IMG/VR virus record: IMGVR_UViG_3300025162_000081
Span: 1-43,605 of that record
Strand: one strand, 5' to 3'
DNA: 43,605 nt
From: a virus
Made by a program: the position numbers and the translations under genes. Below the pieces are notes generated by a model, which was not told the origin of the DNA, searched no databases, and saw only the letters and a list, made by a program, of their open reading frames with translations. This document shows positions 2,176-18,242 of this stretch, one piece after another (positions within the stretch are counted from its first letter, which is position 1; every line of letters begins with the position of its first letter).

Positions 2176-3754
2176 AAATTCGGAAAACTTCTTTTATAAC
2201 CTCTTCTGGATCAGGTAGGTAATCATAAAGTGTTTTTCCTTGTGGAATCATATCAATTGTATCTGTTTTAAATTCTGTGTGTCTTATTTCAAGATCATCA
2301 AGAAGTAATTTTTTATATAATGCTTTTGTTTTATATGATTGTGTACCATTTCTAAAAGGTAAAATGTGATCTTCATGTTTACATGTTGGCATAACAACAA
2401 TCCAATTATCAAATGCGCCTGCAATGTGCAATGGTGATGAATCATTTGTTACCAATACTTTAGATAATGAAATTAATGCCATTAGTTCACCTAATGATGT
2501 AATATCTCTAAAATCATATCCATTTGCTGGACATTTTACTGGTAAATATCCTTGTTTGTCATCAATTGTTTTTCCAACAATTCCAACACATAATTTTTCA
2601 GATAGTCCATCAATAACTTTTTGCCACCAATCAACTGGGAATGTTTTACTTGGCCACCATTTTCCAGGATGAATTAAAACCAATTTCTTATCGTGTGGTT
2701 TATCTTTCAACATATCAATAACTGTAGCAACATCGTCAACATCAAGTTTTAATTTAATAGTTTTGTCTTTATTTGGAATAGTTCTTTTAATCATACTCAT
2801 TGTTGCAAAATCTGTTGGATGAAAAAGTACGTGAGATAATTTGTGCTCAGCTTGTTCATCATCAGGGCAAGTATATAAAGTAAGAACTGCATCTTGCATA
2901 CCTTTCCATTGGTCATAATCAAAAACTGGCATATCTAAATGCTCAAATAATCTAGTGAAGTGAGATACAACAAATATATTTGCATCTGGATATACTTTTT
3001 CTGTATACCTAATTGCTGGCTCAGCACATAATTGATCACCCATACCAGCAGTCACTGAAATAAGAATGTTTCTAGTGTATTTATATTCTGGACCATCATT
3101 TTTCCATTGTTCAATATCTTTTTGTAGTACACCCAATAAAATTTCTTTTGGTGCACCAGCATAATGTACTATATATGAATCAAGTCTGGATATACCAATA
3201 AATTTATCAAGTAAGTCCATTCTATTGTATCTATAATCAAGATCAAACATTGATACATCATCATTAAGAATTCTTAAATTAATATATGGTTGATCTGTTT
3301 CAACAAAATTAATACCTTTTGGCATTTTGAATATTTGTTTATGCATTCTTGAAATAACCATTACTCCTGAATTGTAGAATTTGCCTTTCCATTTTTTCAA
3401 TGGTTCACCATAATAAGACGAAGCCTGTTCAAGATATTCAAAACGTGGAGCATAAGCACCTTCATTAAACATACCTAATTTGTTTTCTGGTACAACTTCA
3501 AAAAGATTTGGTGTATCTTCTCTAACAATAAGATCAATATCTAAATAAATTATTCTTTTATACTTGTTTAAGAGTTCGTGTATATGAAATTTGTTCCATT
3601 TTTGAGTGATGTAATTAGGATCTGTTTCTGTAATATTAATAAAATCTGCGCCTATTCTTTTTGCATATTTTTTAATTGAAGGTAATGTGTACAGGCTTAG
3701 ATTTTCATGAAAATCCCCTATTGAGATAGTTAAAACTAAATTTTCTTTATTCAT
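2159..3754 (-). CDS. two-domain glycosyltransferase: N-terminal DxD GT (GT8-like, 'YLDIDLIV') fused to C-terminal GT9 heptosyltransferase-like domain
   Basis: C-terminal ...KLVLIHPGKWWPSKTFPVDWWQKVIDGL...VLVTNDSSPLHIAGAFDNWIVVM resembles the ADP-heptose:LPS heptosyltransferase C-terminus (GNDSGPMHLAAALG..). 531 aa. Confidence 0.55.
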   Translation of the reverse strand: MNKENLVLTISIGDFHENLSLYTLPSIKKYAKRIGADFINITETDPNYITQKWNKFHIHELLNKYKRIIYLDIDLIVREDTPNLFEVVPENKLGMFNEGAYAPRFEYLEQASSYYGEPLKKWKGKFYNSGVMVISRMHKQIFKMPKGINFVETDQPYINLRILNDDVSMFDLDYRYNRMDLLDKFIGISRLDSYIVHYAGAPKEILLGVLQKDIEQWKNDGPEYKYTRNILISVTAGMGDQLCAEPAIRYTEKVYPDANIFVVSHFTRLFEHLDMPVFDYDQWKGMQDAVLTLYTCPDDEQAEHKLSHVLFHPTDFATMSMIKRTIPNKDKTIKLKLDVDDVATVIDMLKDKPHDKKLVLIHPGKWWPSKTFPVDWWQKVIDGLSEKLCVGIVGKTIDDKQGYLPVKCPANGYDFRDITSLGELMALISLSKVLVTNDSSPLHIAGAFDNWIVVMPTCKHEDHILPFRNGTQSYKTKALYKKLLLDDLEIRHTEFKTDTIDMIPQGKTLYDYLPDPEEVIKEVFRIYEEEK

Positions 3755-4528: not shown

Positions 4529-5776
4529 TTAAAAATTACAAACTCTAACAGGAGTTAATCTTTGTAATGTAGTATTATCACCCAATTGTCCATAATTATT
4601 AACTCCCCAAGTCCAAACATGTCCATTATAATCTATTGCAGATGCATTATAAACACCTGCTGACAAATAACAAAATGTCTTTTTTGCACCTTGTATTGAC
4701 ACTGGTGTACAAATTGATGATGTAGAATTATTACCCAAATATCCATTAACATTAGAACCCCAGCCCCATATTTGTCCATTATTATCTAAACCAAGAGTAT
4801 AATGAAATTTTCCTGTTGAAATTTGACAAAATGTTTTTTTTGCACCTTTTATTGATACTGGTGTATATCTTGATACCGTTGAGTTGTCTCCCAATTCACC
4901 ATATCCATTAAGACCCCAACACCATATTTGTCCATTTTTATCTATTGCCGATACATTATCATTACCCACTGATATTTGACAAAATGTCTTTTTAGCACCT
5001 TGAATTGATACTGGCGTACATGTACATATTATTGAATTATTACCTAATTGACCATATTTGTTATATCCCCAACCCCAAGCTTGTCCTTTATAATCTATAC
5101 CACTTGAATGATAATGAGTACCAATTGAAATTTGGCAAAATGTTTTTTTGTTACCTTGTATTGATATTGGCGTGCGTTTTGATGTTGTGGAATTATCACC
5201 TAAACAACCAAAATTATTATACCCCCAACCCCATAATATTCCATTTTTATCTATTCCAAATCCCAAATAACTACCTGCTGATATTTGGCAAAATGTTTTT
5301 TTGTTACCTTGTATTGATACAGGTGTACATTTTGATGTTGTGGAATTATTACCTAACATTCCATAATAATTATACCCCCAACCCCATATTTGCCCATTTT
5401 TATCTATTCCAAAAGAATATTGTTCCGAAGAACTTGTGTATACCTTACAAAAAGTTTTTTTAGCACCCTGTATTGATACTGGTATACAAGTTGATACAGT
5501 AGAATTATTACCTAATTGACCTTTTGTATTATACCCCCAAGCCCAAGTTTGTCCACTCTTCAATAATATATTGCCAAATCCAGAACTAATCATCATAGCG
5601 ACCCCCCAAGGTGCTGGTGCTGTATAGACCCAATTACTATAATATCCCATACTTGTGAGCCAAGTTTGAGCAGATAAAGCATTAGGTAAATTGGTATGAA
5701 ATGCTCTATTAACAACAGTTAAAAAAGCAGCATCAGATTTACCAATAGAACGCCAGAAAGAAGGTTGAATTGACAT
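4529..5776 (-). CDS. RCC1 / alpha-tubulin-suppressor-like repeat protein (about 7 repeats)
   Basis: Repeated 'WGWGYN.(Y/K)GQLGNNST.S.CTPVSIQG.KKTFC' units (RCC1 signature G.N..GQLG). The underlying ~150-bp DNA units are near-identical tandem repeats across about 4560..5560. Confidence 0.7.
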   Translation of the reverse strand: MSIQPSFWRSIGKSDAAFLTVVNRAFHTNLPNALSAQTWLTSMGYYSNWVYTAPAPWGVAMMISSGFGNILLKSGQTWAWGYNTKGQLGNNSTVSTCIPVSIQGAKKTFCKVYTSSSEQYSFGIDKNGQIWGWGYNYYGMLGNNSTTSKCTPVSIQGNKKTFCQISAGSYLGFGIDKNGILWGWGYNNFGCLGDNSTTSKRTPISIQGNKKTFCQISIGTHYHSSGIDYKGQAWGWGYNKYGQLGNNSIICTCTPVSIQGAKKTFCQISVGNDNVSAIDKNGQIWCWGLNGYGELGDNSTVSRYTPVSIKGAKKTFCQISTGKFHYTLGLDNNGQIWGWGSNVNGYLGNNSTSSICTPVSIQGAKKTFCYLSAGVYNASAIDYNGHVWTWGVNNYGQLGDNTTLQRLTPVRVCNF

Positions 5777-5845
5777 TTATAAAAATTTTAGTTTTAATAT
5801 ATATAAAAAATAGAGTGCATATTTTTTTATTTCAGATATTGTTCT

Positions 5846-5853
5846 TATATTTG
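5846..5853 (+). promoter_or_regulatory. Bacteroidota-type -7 promoter box TATATTTG immediately upstream of the tRNA
   Basis: TAnnTTTG match ends 5 nt before the tRNA 5' end at 5858. Same extended box recurs upstream of many ORFs in the window. Confidence 0.35.
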
Positions 5854-5857
5854 TTGT

Positions 5858-6052
5858 GCCGATGTAGCTCAGTTGGAATAAGAGCGCCACCTTCGAAGGT
5901 GGAACATTGAAGTAGATGAATATCAGTTGCAAATGATATAAAATTTATGAATATGTAGAGGTTGAGATCGAAAGTTTGTGTAAGATGCATATAAGCAAAC
6001 ATATAGGTTAATACTGAAGGGTCACAGGTTCGAGTCCTGTCATTGGAGCAAT
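5858..6052 (+). tRNA. interrupted tRNA gene: 5' part (acceptor, D-arm, anticodon arm; about 5858..5905) and 3' part (T-arm, acceptor; about 6019..6052) separated by a ~113-nt insertion. Anticodon loop is TTCGAA, so Arg(UCG) or Ser(CGA); identity uncertain.
   Basis: 5' part: GCCGATG-TA-GCTC-AGTTGGAATAA-GAGC-G-CCACC-TTCGAA-GGTGG. 3' part: ACAGG-TTCGAGT-CCTGT (canonical T-arm) then CATTGGA-G, which pairs with the 5' acceptor GCCGATG at 6 of 7 positions (1-72 G.A). The anticodon loop is only 6 nt between two perfect 5-bp stems. The intervening 113 nt has no tRNA-like fold I can see. Confidence 0.5.
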
Positions 6053-6665
6053 TTTAAGTTCTTTGAAAATATTAAAATGTTGTGAATTATAACCAGTAGA
6101 TAAGGGCGCAATCGGACTCTTTAAACATCGTGGGAATGCGTCTCTCCCAATGAGGCTGGAGTAATTCACAGTAAATGGGCTAAACATTGAGCCTTTGTGA
6201 AAAAATTGTGTAGTGAAAACGGAGGGGATGGCAATCCCACAAGATAGGAGTATAAATTTGTCCCTGCTCAGGTCCGCAAGACAATTCTTTGAGTAGAATC
6301 GGCAGAAAACCGAGAACCATGCGCCGTGCCTATCACGCAAAAATTTCACATAAAGATGATAATCCAGTAAATGGATGTTGGATATCAAGACGTCTTGATT
6401 TGAAAAGTAAACGCACCTAACGATTCAGAAATGAACCGAGGACAAAATTCTTAGGTCACCAACGGAGAAATCCTATACGTATCGTTACCATTGAGCAAGG
6501 TAAAACGGAACAGATGCTATGTCTGAAACAAGTACAATAAAAGTACAGTGATTTGATTTATCAAATCTAGGAAAACCGTCCAGACGATACGAATGAGTGC
6601 TCAGCCAAACCCTACTTACTATGTGGGAGTTTTCCGTCAGGGTAATTTCCAATCAGGTTAGAAGA
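6053..6665. ncRNA. unclassified structured-RNA candidate: ~600-nt G+C-enriched ORF-free segment next to the tRNA
   Basis: No ORF of 60 aa or more on the + strand. The only minus-strand ORF (6008..6388) is antisense to the tRNA and has atypical composition. G+C is visibly about 40-45% against about 25% background. Many local hairpins: GGGAT-GGCA-ATCCC at about 6225, GGGCT..AGCCT at about 6176, perfect palindrome ATCAAGACGTCTTGAT at about 6384. Strand and class undetermined. Confidence 0.3.
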
Positions 6666-6691
6666 GGGTGCTAAAATTAAAAATTAAAGAA

Positions 6692-6877
6692 ATGGTAACA
6701 TTATTTTGGATAATTTGGTATATTTTGGGTATATTAGGCGCATTAATTTATAATTCGTTTATGAAATATGAGAACACATTTCTAAAATATATTTGGAATG
6801 CTATTGTAGCATGTAGTGGTGGATTTGGATTTCTTATTTCAATTCTACATTGGATAGGTGTTAAATTTATAAAATAA
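6692..6877 (+). CDS. small membrane protein (2 TM)
   Basis: ORF-track 6668..6877 starts at GTG. First ATG is at 6692 (MVTLFWIIWYILGILGALIYN...). Hydrophobic. Confidence 0.35.
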   Translation: MVTLFWIIWYILGILGALIYNSFMKYENTFLKYIWNAIVACSGGFGFLISILHWIGVKFIK

Positions 6878-7000: not shown

Positions 7001-7255
7001 ATGAAAAATAAAAAACATAGTGAAGAAACCAAACATAAGATAAGTGAAAGTAAAATTGGTCGCAAAGTATCAGAAGAAACTAAAAAGAAAATGAGTGATA
7101 CGAAACAGAACGTATCAGAAGAAACTAGAAATAAATTAAGAAAAGCGAAAAAAGGAATATCTATGAGAAAAATAAATTGTCCATATTGTAATAAAATTGG
7201 TGGTATATCACAAATGAGGCAATGGCATTTTGAAAATTGTAAAGATAAAAAATAA
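7001..7255 (+). CDS. free-standing NUMOD3-repeat protein with C-terminal Cys/His zinc finger (homing-endonuclease DNA-binding-domain-like)
   Basis: SEETKHKISESKIG / SEETKKKMSD / SEETRNKLRKAKKG NUMOD3-type repeats, then CPYCNK..HFENC. No catalytic GIY-YIG or HNH part. Confidence 0.5.
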   Translation: MKNKKHSEETKHKISESKIGRKVSEETKKKMSDTKQNVSEETRNKLRKAKKGISMRKINCPYCNKIGGISQMRQWHFENCKDKK

Positions 7256-11240: not shown

Positions 11241-11474
11241 GTGAAAACTTGTAAAAAGATTTCAACTGGAGAGATATTTGAATATGAACAATGTGTTTCT
11301 TATCCTGTATTTGATAGAACTCGAAATAACGGCACAATATATTTTGAATTAATTTCAAAAGGTAAGTTTGTTCTGGGTAAGTATATTGGTGAGGACGAAT
11401 TTTATGATGAATATATTGATATTAAAAAAGAAAGAAGACTTAAATTAGAAAAATTAAATCAAATTCTCCAATAA
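11241..11474 (+). CDS. hypothetical protein (GTG start) ending ..KKERRLKLEKLNQILQ (tail variant)
   Basis: No ATG start; weak. Confidence 0.25.
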   Translation: MKTCKKISTGEIFEYEQCVSYPVFDRTRNNGTIYFELISKGKFVLGKYIGEDEFYDEYIDIKKERRLKLEKLNQILQ

Positions 11475-12397
11475 AACCCTTTATATTTAGTATTTTTTGC
11501 TATCGCCTTTCTTAAGTTTTGAATACATATTTCATTATAATTTTTTATTTCCTTAATATTATTCCAAATCCTAACTATACTTCCTTTTTCGTCTATTTGT
11601 TTAATGTTAGTATATTCTCTCGTATTTAAATTTAATTTTTTAATATTATTCTCAATTTCGGCTTTTTCTAAAAAGTTTAATGAATAATAATAATTTTTAG
11701 CATGCCTACATCTATCTTGTAAAACGAAACTTATAGAACGTGGATTAACATTCATTTCTCTTGAGCATTCTTTTATACTGTTAAATTTTTTTATATAATT
11801 TCCAAACATATCATATTGATATATCTCTATGTTTGTACATTTATTTTTATTATCTCTTATTGGTATATTATTTTCTTTTAATATTTTAGTAATAGTTTCT
11901 CTATCAATTTTTAATTCTATTGATATTTTTTTAATTGATAATTTATTAAAATATAATTCTTTAACTACATCAAGATATTTGCTCCTTTTTAATTTGTATG
12001 CTTTTGATACATTATTTCTATGTTCGTTTGTCCATTTCAATTCTAAATTTGTTGCCGCAAATGCTCTAGAATTATATCCATTTTTATAAGAGTTATATTC
12101 ATCAATATAATACTGTTCTCTTTTTATGCAACTATCACGATCACACTCTTCAATTATTTCAAATATTATATTATCAATTCCATACTTATTGACCGCATTT
12201 TGTAAAGAAGGTGAGTTAGATATATTTTTTGATAGTTTTAAAATATGACTGAGCCATCTTTTATGAAACCCATTTTTATTAGAAGTACTACCAATATAAA
12301 CTTTACCATTATTGTTAATAAAACTTATCTTATATACACCAATACTTTTAGGGAATATTTTTTTATCATTTATCGTATATTTCATTTTATATTTCAT
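11459..12397 (-). CDS. GIY-YIG homing endonuclease with NUMOD1-type C-terminal DNA-binding modules
   Basis: N-terminus IGVYKISFINNNGKVYIGSTSN....R...H is the GIY-YIG motif. C-terminal ..KGFYWRI helix module. Confidence 0.8.
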   Translation of the reverse strand: MKYKMKYTINDKKIFPKSIGVYKISFINNNGKVYIGSTSNKNGFHKRWLSHILKLSKNISNSPSLQNAVNKYGIDNIIFEIIEECDRDSCIKREQYYIDEYNSYKNGYNSRAFAATNLELKWTNEHRNNVSKAYKLKRSKYLDVVKELYFNKLSIKKISIELKIDRETITKILKENNIPIRDNKNKCTNIEIYQYDMFGNYIKKFNSIKECSREMNVNPRSISFVLQDRCRHAKNYYYSLNFLEKAEIENNIKKLNLNTREYTNIKQIDEKGSIVRIWNNIKEIKNYNEICIQNLRKAIAKNTKYKGFYWRI

Positions 12398-16078: not shown

Positions 16079-16358
16079 AATTATGAAATATTTAACTTTA
16101 GAACATTTAGGTACATTACCTACACCAAGATTACTTACTTACTATAAAATAGTTAGAAGGAAAATTAGAAGGCATCAGAATTCATTATATTGTGAGTGTT
16201 GTGGCACACCTGTTTATCAATTATATGGTAAATTAAATACAAAAGAAGAAAATGAAAAATTGAAACTAGAATTTGAAACTGATCTTCATGATAGTGAAAA
16301 CTATCTTGAATCAATAAAAACATTATTAAACACAAGAGAACACGTAAAACGAAAATGA
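16062..16358 (+). CDS. hypothetical protein (CxxC pair)
   Basis: 98 aa. CECCGTP motif. Confidence 0.4.
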   Translation: MKIYIKIMKYLTLEHLGTLPTPRLLTYYKIVRRKIRRHQNSLYCECCGTPVYQLYGKLNTKEENEKLKLEFETDLHDSENYLESIKTLLNTREHVKRK

Positions 16359-17029
16359 AACATTACGATAGTTTTGAGAATATTAAGTACGACCAACTTT
16401 TGTTGGGTGAAGAAATCTGGGCATCAAATAAAATTGATGGTCAGAATTTTTGTGCTAAATATTCACCGAGACAAAAAGAATTTACTATGTTTGGATCTAA
16501 AAATCAAAATGTAGATGAAACAAGTGAGCAATTTGGTAAAGCAGTTTTGTATTTCAAACAAAATATGGCTGATACTCTAAAACAAATCATCATAAACAAT
16601 TCAAAAAAAGGTGGAGTATTTACTGGCGTTGAAGAAATTACAGTATTTTGTGAGTGGTACGGTGAGAACACTTTTAGTGGATTTCATGTGCCTGGCGAAG
16701 AATTAAAATTATGTCTAATAGATGTGTTCTTGAAAAAGAAAGGCTACATTGAACCAAAAATATTCTATAAACTCTTTGATGGCTACAGTAATATTGAAGT
16801 ACCAGAACTCATATATAGTGGCAAACTAACAAAGGATTTCATCAATTCTATTGTGAATAATGATTGGACTAAGCCTGGTTGTTTATATCCAACTGTTAAA
16901 GAAGGTGTAGTTTGTAAACGATCAACTTTAATGAAAGGTCAAAGAATGCCAAAGGCAAAAATAAAAACTGGATGGTGGTTAAATAAATTGACAGAATTAT
17001 ATCCTGATAGATGGAAAGAATTAGAATGA
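16355..17029 (+). CDS. Rnl2-family RNA ligase, nucleotidyltransferase domain only
   Basis: N-terminus aligns with T4 RNA ligase 2 as I recall it: HYDSFENIKYDQL...IWASNKIDGQNFC vs KYSSLENHYNSKF...EWVAREKIHGTNFS (motif I KxxG lysine). Later EEITVFCEWYGE and EGVVCKR (motifs IV/V). 224 aa, so it lacks the Rnl2 C-terminal domain. Confidence 0.65.
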   Translation: MKHYDSFENIKYDQLLLGEEIWASNKIDGQNFCAKYSPRQKEFTMFGSKNQNVDETSEQFGKAVLYFKQNMADTLKQIIINNSKKGGVFTGVEEITVFCEWYGENTFSGFHVPGEELKLCLIDVFLKKKGYIEPKIFYKLFDGYSNIEVPELIYSGKLTKDFINSIVNNDWTKPGCLYPTVKEGVVCKRSTLMKGQRMPKAKIKTGWWLNKLTELYPDRWKELE

Positions 17030-18242
17030 ACTACTAAGTAGTTTCCTTACAAAGATTATACTTTATAAGAACTTTAGATAAATCTAAAGGCTCGTTCATA
17101 GAAGCAAAGTGATTTCCGAACCACCTATTCAATATATTTATGGCTGAATTTAAATCACGGTCTATAATTATGGTGTCTGATAACTGAACTTCCCTATTAC
17201 CAAGACTTATTTTATCTTTAAATAGTTTTCCAGTTAGACAGTTAATTTGTGTTGTCCATTTTTCATCAATTTTCACCAAGTTGGTATTTTTTGCTTGACA
17301 CTTATATGTAAGGAATTGTAGAAACATATTGATATTAGATTGACTAAATGACTTTCTAATACCTTTTTTATTCTCATTCACTCCTTCTGTTGACATTAGC
17401 CTCTTAACTGTTAGATCACCAACTACAATTGTATTGTAGTTCATATTCGATAACTTTTTACTCTGAATATGAAGAGTTTGTTTTATTTGTTCGTTCTTTT
17501 TATGATAACATTTATTTAATGTTTTTTTCAATAATAAGTTTCTATTTGATCCTTTTGTTGTTTTACTCCTTTTGTTTTGTATTTTTGCTATTTGTTTCTG
17601 ATAATAATCATTAATTTTTTTAGATTTATTTTTTAATACAATCATACCACCTTTATTATCTATTCCTGTTCCTAATTTACTTAACCCCAAATCAATAGCA
17701 AGAACTTTAGTTTTAACATTAACATCATTAAAATATTCTATTTTATCGTCAATCACCAAATCACACAACCATTTATGTCTAATAAATTTAATTCTTATTT
17801 CTTTTATTTTTAAATCTTTAATATTTAAATTTGATTTATATTCAAATGGAATTTGATTTAGAAAGAACAATCCTTTTTTTATCATCCATCCTGATTGATT
17901 AAAAGAAATAGTATGAAAATAATTATTTTCTATTTTTCTTGGTGGTTTAGCATTTTTATCTTTTTTTATCAAATTAAAAAATGACCTATAAGATCCATAT
18001 AATTCTGTTGCTATTGTTTGAATTGCCTTTGAATTTAATTTCTTCCAATCTGGATATTCTTCTTTTAATAATGGTAATAAATTATTTAACTTGAATTTAT
18101 CTAAAATTATTTTATCTGTTTCATATTTATCTTGTTGTATATCAAGCAATTTATTCCATATATCTTTACGAATATCAGATAATTCTTGTAATTCAAGAAT
18201 TTGTTCTTTTGATGGAAATAATCTTATTTGATACGTCTTCAT
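17030..18242 (-). mobile_element. IS200/IS605-family tnpB-only (IS1341-like) element; ends not determined
   Basis: TnpB ORF with no adjacent tnpA. Its stop is only 5 nt from the convergent RNA-ligase stop, so any right-end/omega-RNA scaffold must overlap 3' sequence there. Confidence 0.3.
17034..18242 (-). CDS. tnpB: TnpB (IS605 OrfB) RuvC-like RNA-guided-nuclease family protein
   Basis: N-terminus MKTYQIRLFPSKEQ. RuvC-I VLAIDLGLSKLGTG. C-terminal CLTGK...IIDRDLNSAINIL (RuvC-III DRDxNAAxNI). 402 aa. Confidence 0.8.
   Translation of the reverse strand: MKTYQIRLFPSKEQILELQELSDIRKDIWNKLLDIQQDKYETDKIILDKFKLNNLLPLLKEEYPDWKKLNSKAIQTIATELYGSYRSFFNLIKKDKNAKPPRKIENNYFHTISFNQSGWMIKKGLFFLNQIPFEYKSNLNIKDLKIKEIRIKFIRHKWLCDLVIDDKIEYFNDVNVKTKVLAIDLGLSKLGTGIDNKGGMIVLKNKSKKINDYYQKQIAKIQNKRSKTTKGSNRNLLLKKTLNKCYHKKNEQIKQTLHIQSKKLSNMNYNTIVVGDLTVKRLMSTEGVNENKKGIRKSFSQSNINMFLQFLTYKCQAKNTNLVKIDEKWTTQINCLTGKLFKDKISLGNREVQLSDTIIIDRDLNSAINILNRWFGNHFASMNEPLDLSKVLIKYNLCKETT

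What the first reader, a model, noticed from the sequence alone, without database searches (positions are those of the whole stretch)
6053..6665. ~600-nt G+C-enriched, ORF-free, hairpin-rich segment adjacent to the tRNA: candidate large structured ncRNA
In a ~25% GC genome this block is visibly about 40-45% GC and has no ORF of 60 aa or more on the + strand. It contains many short GC-cored hairpins and a perfect 16-bp palindrome. That composition skew is what rRNA, tRNA and other structured RNAs show in AT-rich genomes. Large phage-associated ncRNAs often sit next to tRNA genes. I could not match RNase P, tmRNA, group I/II intron cores or riboswitch boxes by eye. A 13-nt identity to a conserved 23S rRNA segment (AACATTGAGCCTT at about 6183) does not extend.
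Basis: partly seen in the sequence, partly recalled or inferred. Interest (0 to 1): 0.65.

Follow-up and report, generated by a model that had tools for sequence, protein, structure and literature searches.

The report
New structured RNA family in phages
The G+C-rich, gene-free block is a real gene for a large folded non-coding RNA. It belongs to a previously unnamed RNA family found in well over a hundred environmental phage contigs, often packed between tRNA and tmRNA genes, and its function is still unknown.

Summary
Window 6053-6665 has 39.8% GC against 27% overall, the highest in the window. It has stop codons in all frames and contains the 16-bp palindrome and the 23S-like 13-mer.

The interpretation also holds. 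A syntenic relative (L008) is about 90% identical in this region, while the neighbouring protein is only 57% identical. Pattern scans recovered 114 distinct full-length homologues of 155-624 nt from metagenomes and IMG/VR, plus Cellulophaga phage phi14:2.

The homologues share a roughly 155-nt core:
- a hairpin with a near-invariant loop, UAAACAUUGA
- a GNRA hairpin
- a long-range helix enclosing a second hairpin
- a pseudoknot
- a 3' hairpin ending in GCUAA

Covariation is strong: 95.5% of cells are paired against 80.7% when shuffled, and 18 of 28 pairs show double changes. No Rfam 15 family matches.

Nearby tRNA and tmRNA genes are always on the same strand and sometimes abut the RNA within 1-5 nt. 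This suggests the RNA is cut out by tRNA-processing enzymes. In phi14:2 the matching intergenic region was reported as a very abundant, early and stable non-coding transcript.

The window copy is an expanded version of about 600 nt, spanning roughly 6082-6677. It follows an odd tRNA-like gene. Function is unknown. I favour a stable trans-acting RNA that binds a host partner.

The parts
5846..5853 (+). TATATTTG, a possible -7 promoter box of Bacteroidota type (TAnnTTTG), ending 4 nt before the tRNA-like gene
   Evidence: Read directly from the sequence. The region is conserved in L008, L009 and L011. The promoter consensus is recalled from memory, so this assignment is an inference.
5858..6052 (+). 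tRNA-like gene: acceptor, D, anticodon and T arms plus a ~120-nt two-helix insert at the variable-arm position. The anticodon loop is reduced to the 6-nt palindrome UUCGAA.
   Evidence: Weak Rfam tRNA match of 16.9 bits. ARAGORN -i gives an unconvincing 'intron' model. Consensus cloverleaf over 5 loci; L011 and L012 keep a canonical CUGAUAA loop with Ile GAU.
6056..6067 (+). AAGTTCTTTGAA motif in the leader between the tRNA-like gene and the RNA
   Evidence: Conserved in L008 and L009. The same motif occurs three times in L013: once right after a tRNA, once before its RNA copy and once before its tmRNA. Its role as promoter or processing site is unknown.
6082..6169 (+). E1: optional 5' domain closed by the helix GTGAATTA/TAATTCAC, with an internal loop UUUAAACAUCG
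   Evidence: Also present directly upstream of H1 in the distant members L130 and L083. There the outer helix is fully compensated (ATAAAACA/TGTTTTAT) and an inner helix changes GCGC/GCGU to CCGC/GCGG.
6177..6194 (+). H1 hairpin: stem GGCU/AGCC with loop AAACAUUG. This is the family's most conserved loop and contains the 23S-like 13-mer.
   Evidence: Loop is near-invariant across the family. At least 12 different Watson-Crick stems occur. Mean best stem length is 5.33 against 4.69 +/- 0.08 with shuffled partners, and 0 of 300 shuffles reach the observed value. CM hit at 6174-6220.
6197..6349 (+). H2: helix GTGAAA/TTTCAC closing a variable domain. In the window it holds a ~135-nt insert (6206-6343) that is the most G+C-rich part.
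   Evidence: In L008 the whole insert is replaced by a ~20-nt loop while the closing helix is kept. Other members carry unrelated inserts at the same place.
6350..6358 (+). Conserved single-stranded joiner AUAAAGAUG
   Evidence: Consensus (C)AUAAAGAU in most members.
6359..6463 (+). Block of extra hairpins found only in long-form members: AUCCA-GUAAA-UGGAU (6362-6376), the 16-bp palindrome (6384-6399), and ACCUAA/UUAGGU (6415-6456) enclosing a small hairpin
   Evidence: Alignment with L008 shows that the inner hairpin keeps pairing with a different sequence. The block is absent from short-form members.
6464..6473 (+). H3: GNRA hairpin GGA-GAAA-UCC
   Evidence: L008 has GGG-GAAA-CCC, a compensatory change. 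Six of six H3 pairs show double changes across the family.
6478..6591 (+). H4: long-range helix CGUAUCGU (6478-6485) with ACGAUACG (6584-6591). It encloses H5 and the variable H6 region (6502-6583).
   Evidence: Seven of seven pairs show double changes and 98.8% of cells are paired. See also the raw strand listing.
6487..6501 (+). H5: stem ACC/GGU with loop AUUGAGCAA. Loop bases UGAGCA (6492-6497) form the 5' strand of the pseudoknot.
   Evidence: H5 stem: four of four pairs with double changes. Pseudoknot: A/U in 109 sequences, C/G in 5, and no discordant combination among 114, although the search pattern allowed all four.
6592..6606 (+). Conserved joiner AAUGAGUGCUCAGCC. Bases UGCUCA (6598-6603) form the 3' strand of the pseudoknot.
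   Evidence: Invariant in members found by independent routes (synteny, another motif, BLAST). Pseudoknot counts.
6609..6669 (+). H8: 3' hairpin with base ACCCU (6609-6613) / AGGGU (6665-6669) and a variable distal part
   Evidence: 98% of cells are paired, but the base pairs are almost invariant, so they give little covariation. CM hit at 6518-6677, 32.5 bits, E 2.6e-4. This hairpin alone survives in Cellulophaga phages phi4:1 and phi17:2.
6670..6677 (+). 3' tail GCUAAAAU, the likely 3' end of the RNA
   Evidence: In other members a tRNA or tmRNA gene starts 1-11 nt after this tail (L048, L133, L016).

Best explanation
Window ~6082-6677 (+ strand) encodes an expanded, ~600-nt member of a previously unnamed family of phage structured RNAs. 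The hosts are probably Bacteroidota.

Shown: the family shares a ~155-nt core. It consists of the H1 hairpin with the invariant loop UAAACAUUGA, a GNRA hairpin (H3), a long-range helix (H4) enclosing hairpin H5 and a variable arm, a pseudoknot between the H5 loop and the invariant joiner AAUGAGUKCUCAGC, and a 3' hairpin (H8) ending in GCUAA. Optional domains (E1, H2, H6, H7) are inserted at fixed points.

Shown: the gene lies on the same strand as every nearby tRNA or tmRNA gene and can abut them within 1-5 nt.

Inferred: the RNA is transcribed with those genes, here from a promoter in front of the tRNA-like gene at 5858. Host tRNA-processing enzymes then release it: RNase Z or another 3'-end enzyme at its 5' side, and RNase P at its 3' side when a tRNA follows.

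Inferred, roughly 0.3-0.4 likely: the mature RNA is a stable trans-acting molecule. Its rigid pseudoknotted core presents the invariant H1 loop, and the similar E1 loop, to a partner conserved across hosts. Because of the company it keeps with tRNA, tmRNA and an RNA ligase in this phage, that partner is most plausibly part of the translation or tRNA machinery. The RNA would act as a decoy, sponge or scaffold early in infection.
For: 1. Conservation. The non-coding block is ~90% identical to L008 over 384 + 422 aligned nt, while the adjacent RCC1 protein is 57% identical.
2. Family size.
3. Covariation on 60 representatives less than 86% identical to each other. 95.5% of cells are paired, against 80.7% shuffled and ~42% slid. 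18 of 28 pairs have double changes, with 218 compensatory cells. None of 500 shuffles reaches any measure.
4. Pseudoknot. 109 A/U, 5 C/G and 0 discordant combinations.
5. H1 and E1 helices are also compensated.
6. G-U pairs occur on the + strand (for example UG:13 and GU:6 at one pair). They would be A-C mismatches on the other strand.
7. All 32 tRNA or tmRNA genes within 500 nt are on the same strand, and some junctions are only 1-5 nt.
8. Cellulophaga phage phi14:2 carries a full copy at about 2911-3362, followed by one gene and a tmRNA. Drobysheva et al. (bioRxiv 10.1101/2020.03.07.982082) report that two long intergenic regions at that end of the genome are transcribed rightward above most genes, from the earliest time point and without later decline.
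9. No protein gene is consistently linked to the RNA, and downstream genes vary. Both points fit a stand-alone RNA.
Against: Nothing here tests function directly.
- The mapping of the published phi14:2 'long non-coding RNAs' onto this RNA rests on gene order and gap sizes.
- Most metagenome-derived members were retrieved with two of the conserved motifs, so the invariance of those motifs in them is partly by construction.
- The core alignment was spliced from anchored segments.
- Only 20 of 114 loci show a tRNA or tmRNA within 500 nt (many contigs are short), so tRNA-linked processing cannot be the only route to maturation.
- The RNA is dispensable in some relatives. L012 lacks it, and phi4:1 and phi17:2 keep only H8.
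- No intramolecular or identified external partner for the H1 loop was found. H1-loop variants (CAUC) are not compensated in the AAUG of the joiner.
Confidence: 0.85

Rival explanations
1. A self-assembling 'ornate' RNA. Like GOLLD and ROOL, which are phage-associated, tRNA-adjacent RNAs reported to form RNA-only multimers, it would oligomerise into a scaffold or cage, and that architecture would itself be the function.
For: The genomic setting is the same: phages, next to tRNAs, with modular variable peripheral arms. GNRA tetraloops are available for docking. The window copy has a perfect 16-bp palindrome (6384-6399) and a palindromic UUCGAA loop in the adjoining tRNA-like gene, either of which could pair between molecules. 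The paper on ornate RNA-only complexes appears, but only its abstract was seen.
Against: The core is only ~155 nt, far smaller than GOLLD or ROOL. The palindromes lie in lineage-specific parts, not in the core. The conserved H1 loop is not self-complementary. There is no Rfam match to GOLLD or ROOL, even at E up to 10.
Confidence: 0.12
2. A ribozyme, self-cleaving or acting on another RNA such as tRNA or tmRNA precursors. The invariant unpaired bases (AAUGAG, CAGC, GUGA, GCUAA) and the pseudoknot would form the active site.
For: Joiner strands around a pseudoknotted junction are extremely conserved, while helices vary freely. The RNA sits tightly between RNAs that need processing.
Against: Nothing matches any Rfam ribozyme family, including RNase P, group I/II introns and the small self-cleavers. 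By-eye comparison with the RNase P P4 helix and the group I P3-P8 core did not fit. This rests on my own recall of those cores, so the exclusion is weak. No cleavage-site signature was identified.
Confidence: 0.1
3. A cis-acting leader, such as a riboswitch or protein-binding 5' UTR, that controls the gene immediately downstream. In the window that gene is the 61-aa membrane protein at 6692-6877.
For: The tail AGAGGGUGCUAA lies 15 nt before the downstream start codon in the window, and neighbouring genes are nearly always on the same strand.
Against: What follows the RNA is not conserved. It can be a tRNA, a tmRNA or unrelated ORFs, and the best protein cluster is present in only 12 of 114 loci. 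L012 has the same small gene without the RNA. The phi14:2 transcript is reported as a separate abundant RNA.
Confidence: 0.05
4. A mimic or captured fragment of ribosomal RNA. This would account for the 23S-like 13-mer and other short identities, and the RNA would titrate an rRNA-binding factor.
For: AACATTGAGCCTT equals E. coli 23S 2094-2106. The family motifs ATGAGTTCTC and (T)CCTTGAGA both occur within 23S 2778-2802, and GGGTGCTAA occurs at 952-960.
Against: Roughly one exact 9-10-mer match is expected by chance for this many conserved bases. The minus-strand control also yields a match shared by 71 members. The matching 23S segments are scattered, in a different order, and by my reading fold differently. 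The Rfam LSU models give nothing at E up to 10. Only E. coli rRNA was compared, not rRNA from the likely Bacteroidota hosts.
Confidence: 0.05
5. A mobile element or intron: a group I or II intron, an IS200/605-type remnant with guide RNA, or a homing-endonuclease cassette.
For: The element is present in some close relatives and absent in others (L012 lacks it, L011 has a short form). HNH endonuclease ORFs sit beside the RNA in 4 loci and split or duplicate it in L016. A TnpB gene lies elsewhere in the window.
Against: The RNA is not inserted in any gene, so there are no exons to rejoin. Rfam intron and omega-RNA families do not match. It has no similarity to the flanks of the window's TnpB or to any other part of the window. 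No terminal repeats or target duplications were seen at the L012/L011 junctions. Endonuclease genes beside conserved phage genes are common and do not make the target mobile.
Confidence: 0.03
6. A decayed protein-coding gene, or a DNA-level element such as an origin or packaging site, rather than an RNA.
For: There is a 126-aa minus-strand ORF at 6008-6388. The block has a G+C content foreign to the genome.
Against: There are 12-14 stops per + frame. Indels between relatives are large, not multiples of three, and are bounded by helices. Compensatory changes and + strand G-U pairs point to a folded transcript. Expression is reported for the phi14:2 copy.
Confidence: 0.02

Closest known systems
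ROOL RNA (rumen-originating, ornate, large)
   Same: A large structured RNA of unknown function, frequent in phages and prophages and often next to tRNA genes. It is about 580 nt, like the window copy. These ROOL properties come from my own knowledge.
   Different: There is no sequence or structure match, with Rfam cmscan silent at E up to 10. The conserved core here is only ~155 nt, and the 600-nt size of the window copy comes from optional inserts. The hosts here appear to be Bacteroidota rather than Firmicutes.
GOLLD RNA
   Same: Phage-borne, adjacent to tRNAs, with a variable half and a conserved half. It is reported to be made during lytic growth (from my own knowledge).
   Different: No Rfam match. 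GOLLD is about 800 nt with a different conserved 3' domain. The present family has a compact pseudoknotted core and a signature loop UAAACAUUGA.
Stable RNAs C and D (species 1 and 2) of the phage T4 tRNA gene cluster
   Same: Small stable RNAs of unknown function, encoded among phage tRNA genes and cut out of the same precursors (from my own knowledge). This is the closest analogy for the mode of biogenesis proposed here.
   Different: The T4 RNAs are about 120-140 nt and restricted to T4 relatives. BLAST of family members against 50,697 phage records returned only Cellulophaga phages and no T4-like phage. This is a sequence-level test of limited sensitivity.
tmRNA (standard and permuted)
   Same: A phage-encoded structured RNA with pseudoknots that sits in the same clusters. 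A tmRNA lies within 0-1 kb of the new RNA in L013, L031, L035, L074, L133 and phi14:2.
   Different: The new RNA has no tRNA-like acceptor/T-arm domain and no tag reading frame. ARAGORN and Rfam call the neighbouring tmRNAs but never this RNA.
Bacterial Y RNA (YrlA)
   Same: Rfam's second-best weak hit (16.1 bits, E 2.8) spans the tRNA-like 3' end and the leader. YrlA also joins a tRNA-like module to a further domain.
   Different: The score is far below the gathering score of 69 and rests on the T arm alone. No Ro/Rsr protein gene was seen among the neighbours.

Membership tests
Any Rfam 15 family (4227 models, including GOLLD, ROOL, HEARO/omega RNA, OLE, raiA, RNase P, tmRNA, group I and II introns, riboswitches, 6S, SRP) | Covariance-model score at or above the curated gathering score | tested here: not met
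   There were 0 hits in the whole window. In 11 loci with family members, only the flanking tRNAs and tmRNAs were hit.
Any Rfam 15 family, permissive search | Any match at E up to 10 on the element itself | tested here: not met
   Window 5780-6720 gave only a weak tRNA match (16.9 bits) and YrlA (16.1 bits), both on the tRNA-like gene. L022 7700-8100 gave three chance-level hits.
Group I intron | Inserted in a host gene, with flanking exons that rejoin | tested here: not met
   Copies lie between genes. Upstream and downstream neighbours are unrelated ORFs, tRNAs or tmRNAs.
Group I intron | P3-P8 core order with the P3/P7 pseudoknot and a guanosine-binding P7 | tested here: inconclusive
   The helix order derived here (H4 enclosing H5 and H6, then the joiner, H7 and H8) does not map onto P4-P6/P3-P8 by eye. 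This uses my recollection of the intron core, and the only formal test is the negative Rfam result.
RNase P RNA | Conserved regions CR-I and CR-V forming the P4 helix | tested here: not met
   No Rfam RNase P model matches. The pseudoknot strands here are UGAGAA/UUCUCA, not the P4 sequences as I recall them.
tmRNA | tRNA-like acceptor/T-arm domain plus a tag-peptide reading frame | tested here: not met
   ARAGORN -m finds nothing in 5701-6800. Rfam tmRNA models hit the neighbouring genes in L013, L014 and L035 but not this RNA.
Canonical tRNA (for the adjacent 5858-6052 gene) | A 7-nt anticodon loop and a cloverleaf of normal size, detected by ARAGORN or the Rfam tRNA model | tested here: not met
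   ARAGORN at default settings finds no gene. Rfam gives 16.9 bits against a gathering score of 29. The loop is 6 nt (UUCGAA) and a ~120-nt insert sits at the variable-arm position.
TnpB/IscB guide RNA (omega RNA) or IS200/605 end | Lies at the end of, or shares sequence with, the transposon that encodes the nuclease | tested here: not met
   The window's TnpB is 10 kb away at 17034-18242. BLAST of the region against the window finds nothing beyond 16-35-nt chance matches.
The new family described here | H1 loop, GNRA H3, H4, H5 with pseudoknot, joiner AAUGAGUKCUCAGC, and H8 with the GCUAA tail, in that order | tested here: met
   All elements were located in the window at the coordinates given under parts. 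The CM built from 60 representatives hits 6518-6677 (32.5 bits, E 2.6e-4) and 6174-6220. The split into two hits reflects the large inserts.

The most novel reading that the evidence does not exclude
This would be a new class of catalytic or machine-like phage RNA. Its roughly 155-nt double-pseudoknotted core would act directly on the host translation or tRNA apparatus. For example, it could dock tRNA, tmRNA or a ribosomal site through the invariant UAAACAUUGA loop, to reprogramme the apparatus or protect it during infection. If so, it would be a widespread RNA-only host-takeover or anti-defence factor of Bacteroidota phages, including crAss-like phages.
Probability: 0.15. Interest if true: 0.9.

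Novelty: new variant of a known kind. Interest (0 to 1): 0.72.

Why it matters
Large conserved RNAs of unknown function are rare, and past examples have led to new biochemistry. This one is abundant in freshwater and marine viral metagenomes. It has a compact, well-supported fold and sits among tRNA and tmRNA genes.

It is also present in a cultivable model phage, the crAss-like Cellulophaga phage phi14:2. There, the corresponding region was already noted as one of the most abundant early transcripts, with no assigned function.

Linking that orphan transcript to a family with a defined structure makes its function directly testable by genetics, pull-downs and structural work.

The finding also corrects annotation. 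In GenBank the region is covered by spurious tiny ORFs, and phage contigs carrying the RNA sit in MAG bins assigned to unrelated phyla.

Tried and rejected
- Rfam at gathering and permissive thresholds on the window and on relatives gave nothing beyond flanking tRNA and tmRNA genes.
- BLAST of the region against 50,697 phage records gave no match at E 1e-3. Later searches with other members found only Cellulophaga phages.
- Exact-pattern scans of IMG/VR with the tRNA 3' end and with AGCAAGGTAAAACGGAACAG gave 0 hits.
- Synteny through the sulfotransferase gave loci without the RNA.
- The homologue search with the RCC1 protein was swamped by repeat proteins, although P0061 led to the key relative L008.
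- The ARAGORN intron model for the tRNA-like gene (Ile GAU, 105-nt intron) was rejected because its 3' anticodon-stem strand is not conserved in L008.
- Pairing of the H1 loop CAUU with AAUG of the joiner was rejected for lack of compensation in CAUC variants.
- Pairing of AGCA with the UGCU of the tail has no covariation. L033 and L025 break it without compensation.
- The rRNA-mimic idea did not hold: short identities are at chance level, and the minus-strand control also gives one.
- A search for a conserved partner protein among neighbours found none. Pfam on the commonest neighbour found no domain.
- My first two scripts for H1 stems were flawed and were replaced.
- Literature searches found no named description of this family.
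Full report
**1. The observation.**

Window 6053-6665 has a GC fraction of 0.398, against 0.270 for the whole 43.6-kb window. Non-overlapping windows of the same length have mean 0.27 and sd 0.042. No sliding window outside this neighbourhood reaches the region's value.

All three + frames carry 12-14 stop codons. The only sizeable ORF is a TTG-start 126-codon ORF on the minus strand that runs into the tRNA-like gene.

The 16-bp palindrome is at 6384-6399. The 13-mer AACATTGAGCCTT is at 6183-6195 and matches E. coli 23S rRNA 2094-2106 exactly. Single-sequence folding is only mildly better than shuffles, with z = -2.1, so the case rests on comparative data.

The neighbouring 'tRNA' is abnormal. 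ARAGORN and Rfam at gathering score miss it. It is a cloverleaf at 5858-6052 with a 6-nt anticodon loop and a ~120-nt insert where the variable arm should be.

**2. Finding relatives.**

The contig recurs unchanged in several metagenomes.

A syntenic relative, L008 (NCBI CAZFOC010000042.1), was reached through a 57%-identical RCC1 protein. Across the whole non-coding block it is about 88-90% identical at the DNA level. The exception is a ~130-nt stretch (window ~6206-6343) that L008 replaces with a short loop while keeping the closing helix GTGAAA/TTTCAC.

Homologues of the small downstream membrane protein gave three further kinds of locus:
- L009 and L010 carry the element with two extra hairpin-like inserts.
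- L011 carries a ~350-nt version.
- L012 lacks the element entirely.

Motifs shared by these copies were then used for exact-pattern scans:
- IMG/VR gave about 15 real members among 27 hits.
- The GTDB genome collection gave 8 hits. Seven are MAG contigs of unrelated phyla; the eighth is an 80-kb contig of an isolate assembly, Chitinimonas sp. BJB300.

After removing duplicates there are 114 distinct full-length sequences of 155-624 nt.

**3. Anatomy.**

The smallest members (155 nt, for example L076) define the core:
- H1: a 4-6-bp stem with the near-invariant loop UAAACAUUGA.
- A joiner, AUAAAGAU.
- H3: a GNRA hairpin, usually with loop GUAA.
- H4: a 7-8-bp long-range helix.
- H5: enclosed by H4, a short stem with loop CUUGAGAAA.
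- H6: a variable arm, also enclosed by H4.
- The invariant joiner AAUGAGUKCUCAGC.
- H7: an optional hairpin followed by GUGA.
- H8: base ACCCU/AGGGU with a variable tip.
- The tail GCUAA.

Larger members add domains at fixed points. H2 sits between H1 and the first joiner. Extra hairpins sit before H3. An optional 5' domain, E1, sits before H1.

In the window all of these are present:
- E1 at 6082-6169
- H1 at 6177-6194
- H2 at 6197-6349, including the G+C-rich insert
- extra hairpins at 6359-6463
- H3 at 6464-6473
- H4 at 6478-6485 paired with 6584-6591
- H5 at 6487-6501
- the invariant joiner at 6592-6606
- H8 at 6609-6669
- the tail at 6670-6677

**4. Is the structure real?**

I took 60 representatives less than 86% identical to each other in the core. 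The variable arms were cut out and five anchored segments joined to give alignment A4. I counted pairs for H3, H4, H5, the pseudoknot and H8:
- 95.5% of cells form standard pairs, against 80.7% after shuffling partners and about 42% when partners are slid by 1-3 columns.
- 18 of 28 pairs show changes on both sides, and 218 cells carry such compensatory changes, against 48 expected.
- None of 500 shuffles reaches any of the five measures.
- Every pair of H3, H4 and H5 shows double changes.
- H8 pairs are almost invariant and so carry no information.

The pseudoknot between the H5 loop (UGAGMA) and the joiner (UKCUCA) rests on one variable pair. Among 114 sequences it is A/U in 109 and C/G in 5, and never discordant, although the search pattern admitted all four combinations. 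The five C/G sequences include three quite different architectures (the window lineage, L022/L146 and L038).

H1 stems take at least a dozen different Watson-Crick forms. They are longer than with shuffled partners: 5.33 against 4.69 +/- 0.08, with 0 of 300 shuffles reaching the observed value.

E1 recurs directly upstream of H1 in the distant members L130 and L083, with its outer helix completely exchanged (GUGAAUUA/UAAUUCAC against AUAAAACA/UGUUUUAU).

G-U pairs are frequent on the + strand, which fixes the sense of the RNA.

Three caveats apply:
- Most metagenome-derived members were retrieved with two of the conserved motifs.
- The alignment is spliced.
- The shuffle control does not remove phylogenetic signal, although the slide control does.

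A covariance model built from A4 finds only this one locus in the window: 6518-6677 at 32.5 bits, plus 6174-6220. It finds nothing in L012.

**5. What it is not.**

No Rfam 15 family matches the window or the relatives, at curated or permissive thresholds. Only the flanking tRNA and tmRNA genes are called.

It is not an intron, because copies lie between genes with unrelated neighbours.

It is unrelated to the window's TnpB element.

It is not a coding relic, because indels are large, out of frame and bounded by helices.

The 23S identity is real but short. Other 9-10-mer identities to E. coli rRNA are no more frequent than on the control strand.

**6. Context and expression.**

Of 114 loci, 20 have at least one tRNA or tmRNA gene within 500 nt. 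All 32 such genes are on the same strand as the RNA. In L152 and L107 a tRNA ends 1-5 nt before H1. In L048 and L133 a tRNA or tmRNA starts 1-2 nt after the tail. Several members lie in arrays of 9-29 tRNA genes, and some of those contigs are very large (L022 310 kb, L043 266 kb).

A tmRNA is nearby in at least six loci.

No protein gene is consistently linked to the RNA. The commonest neighbour occurs in 12 loci and has no Pfam domain. HNH endonuclease genes sit beside the RNA in four loci, and in L016 one separates a truncated copy from a complete one.

Among cultured phages, only Cellulophaga phages matched. The crAss-like phage phi14:2 has a full copy at about 2911-3362, where GenBank annotates three tiny minus-strand ORFs that RefSeq has removed. 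One gene and then a tmRNA follow it. Phages phi4:1 and phi17:2 keep only the H8 hairpin at the homologous spot.

Drobysheva et al. reported that two long intergenic regions near the left end of phi14:2 (the g004-g005 and g005-g006 junctions) are transcribed rightward at higher levels than most genes, from the earliest time point and without later decline. They left these 'long non-coding RNAs' unexplained. By gene order and gap size these are the new RNA and the tmRNA. I could not check the coordinates.

Three things point to Bacteroidota hosts: the Cellulophaga hosts, a TAnnTTTG-like box before the tRNA-like gene, and two Bacteroidota MAG bins. This is an inference.

**7. How it probably works.**

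Shown: a conserved, pseudoknotted RNA gene on the + strand that is co-oriented with tRNA-type genes and sometimes contiguous with them.

Inferred: it is co-transcribed with them and released by the host's tRNA end-processing enzymes, as is known for the stable RNAs of the T4 tRNA cluster (my own knowledge).

Inferred with low confidence: the helices vary freely, while the H1 loop and the joiners are almost invariant across phages whose proteins have diverged beyond recognition. The conserved surface therefore most likely contacts something conserved in the hosts. No intramolecular partner for the H1 loop was found. A similar loop (UUUAAACAUCG) recurs in E1.

I therefore favour a stable trans-acting decoy, sponge or scaffold directed at the translation or tRNA machinery. 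Ribozyme and self-assembling 'ornate RNA' models remain open. The RNA is dispensable in some relatives (L012, phi4:1), as expected for an accessory host-interaction factor.

**8. Novelty.**

The closest known things are ROOL and GOLLD, which share the setting and are also of unknown function, and the T4 RNAs C and D, which share the likely biogenesis. The new family shares neither sequence nor fold with them.

I found no named description in Rfam 15 or in the searchable literature. The RNA may be hidden among the 10,006 unnamed candidates of Fremin et al.. One member was seen as an anonymous abundant transcript.

I rate it as a new class within the known kind 'phage-borne structured RNAs associated with tRNA genes'. 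There is a real chance that its function is of a new type.

Noticed in passing
window 5858-6052: A tRNA-Ile-like gene carries a ~120-nt two-helix insert at the variable-arm position. The insert is conserved in five related loci. The anticodon loop is canonical (CUGAUAA, GAU) in L011 and L012 but shortened to 6, 6 and 4-6 nt in the window, L008 and L009, so those copies can hardly decode. In the window and L009 the loop is the palindrome UUCGAA.
   Followed up: partly
window 5846-5853: TATATTTG fits the Bacteroidota -7 promoter box TAnnTTTG (consensus from memory). It ends 4 nt before the tRNA-like gene, which hints at a Bacteroidota host and a transcription start near the tRNA 5' end.
   Followed up: no
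window 6056-6067; L013 2960-4015: The motif AAGTTCTTTGAA precedes the RNA in the window. In L013 it occurs three times: once right after a tRNA, once before the RNA and once before the permuted tmRNA. It could be a promoter or a processing signal for RNA genes.
   Followed up: no
L012 1-230 and L174 2440-2610 (Cellulophaga phage phi4:1): There are natural presence/absence variants. L012 has the tRNA-like gene followed directly by the small membrane-protein gene, with no RNA. Phages phi4:1 and phi17:2 retain only the H8 hairpin and tail after a gene whose 3'-terminal ~25 nt match those of phi14:2 gp006.
   Followed up: partly
L016 12300-13720: An HNH endonuclease ORF on the opposite strand lies between a 5' fragment of a long-form RNA and a complete short-form RNA. 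This looks like a homing-endonuclease insertion with partial duplication of the RNA gene.
   Followed up: partly
L021 1236-1557 and L037 1901-2198: Two family members lack H1. They start right after a tRNA-like T-arm hairpin, as if a tRNA module replaced the H1 hairpin.
   Followed up: no
window 16355-18242: An RNA ligase gene (PF09414) at 16355-17029 lies tail-to-tail with a TnpB/OrfB_IS605 gene at 17034-18242. An RNA ligase alongside tRNA-like genes suggests tRNA repair.
   Followed up: no
window 34998-37409: An 803-aa protein has major-vault-protein shoulder and repeat domains plus an SPFH/Band 7 domain. This is unusual for a phage-like contig, and there is no PHROG match.
   Followed up: no
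window 7001-7255, 11459-12397, 37972-38742: Two GIY-YIG/NUMOD homing-endonuclease genes are present. An 84-aa ORF 320 nt downstream of the RNA has only a faint precomputed NUMOD3 hit, seen on its identical copy in L001.
   Followed up: no
L044-L051 (GTDB genome contigs): Contigs carrying this phage RNA are binned into MAGs labelled Nitrososphaerota, Peribacteria, Caldilineaceae, Clostridium, SAR92 and others. They are most likely phage contigs mis-binned into those genomes.
   Followed up: no
L172 2426-2751 (KC821624.1 3106-3431): GenBank annotates three 34-39-aa 'hypothetical proteins' (gp007-gp009) on the minus strand across the RNA gene of phi14:2. RefSeq has removed them. They are almost certainly spurious.
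   Followed up: yes
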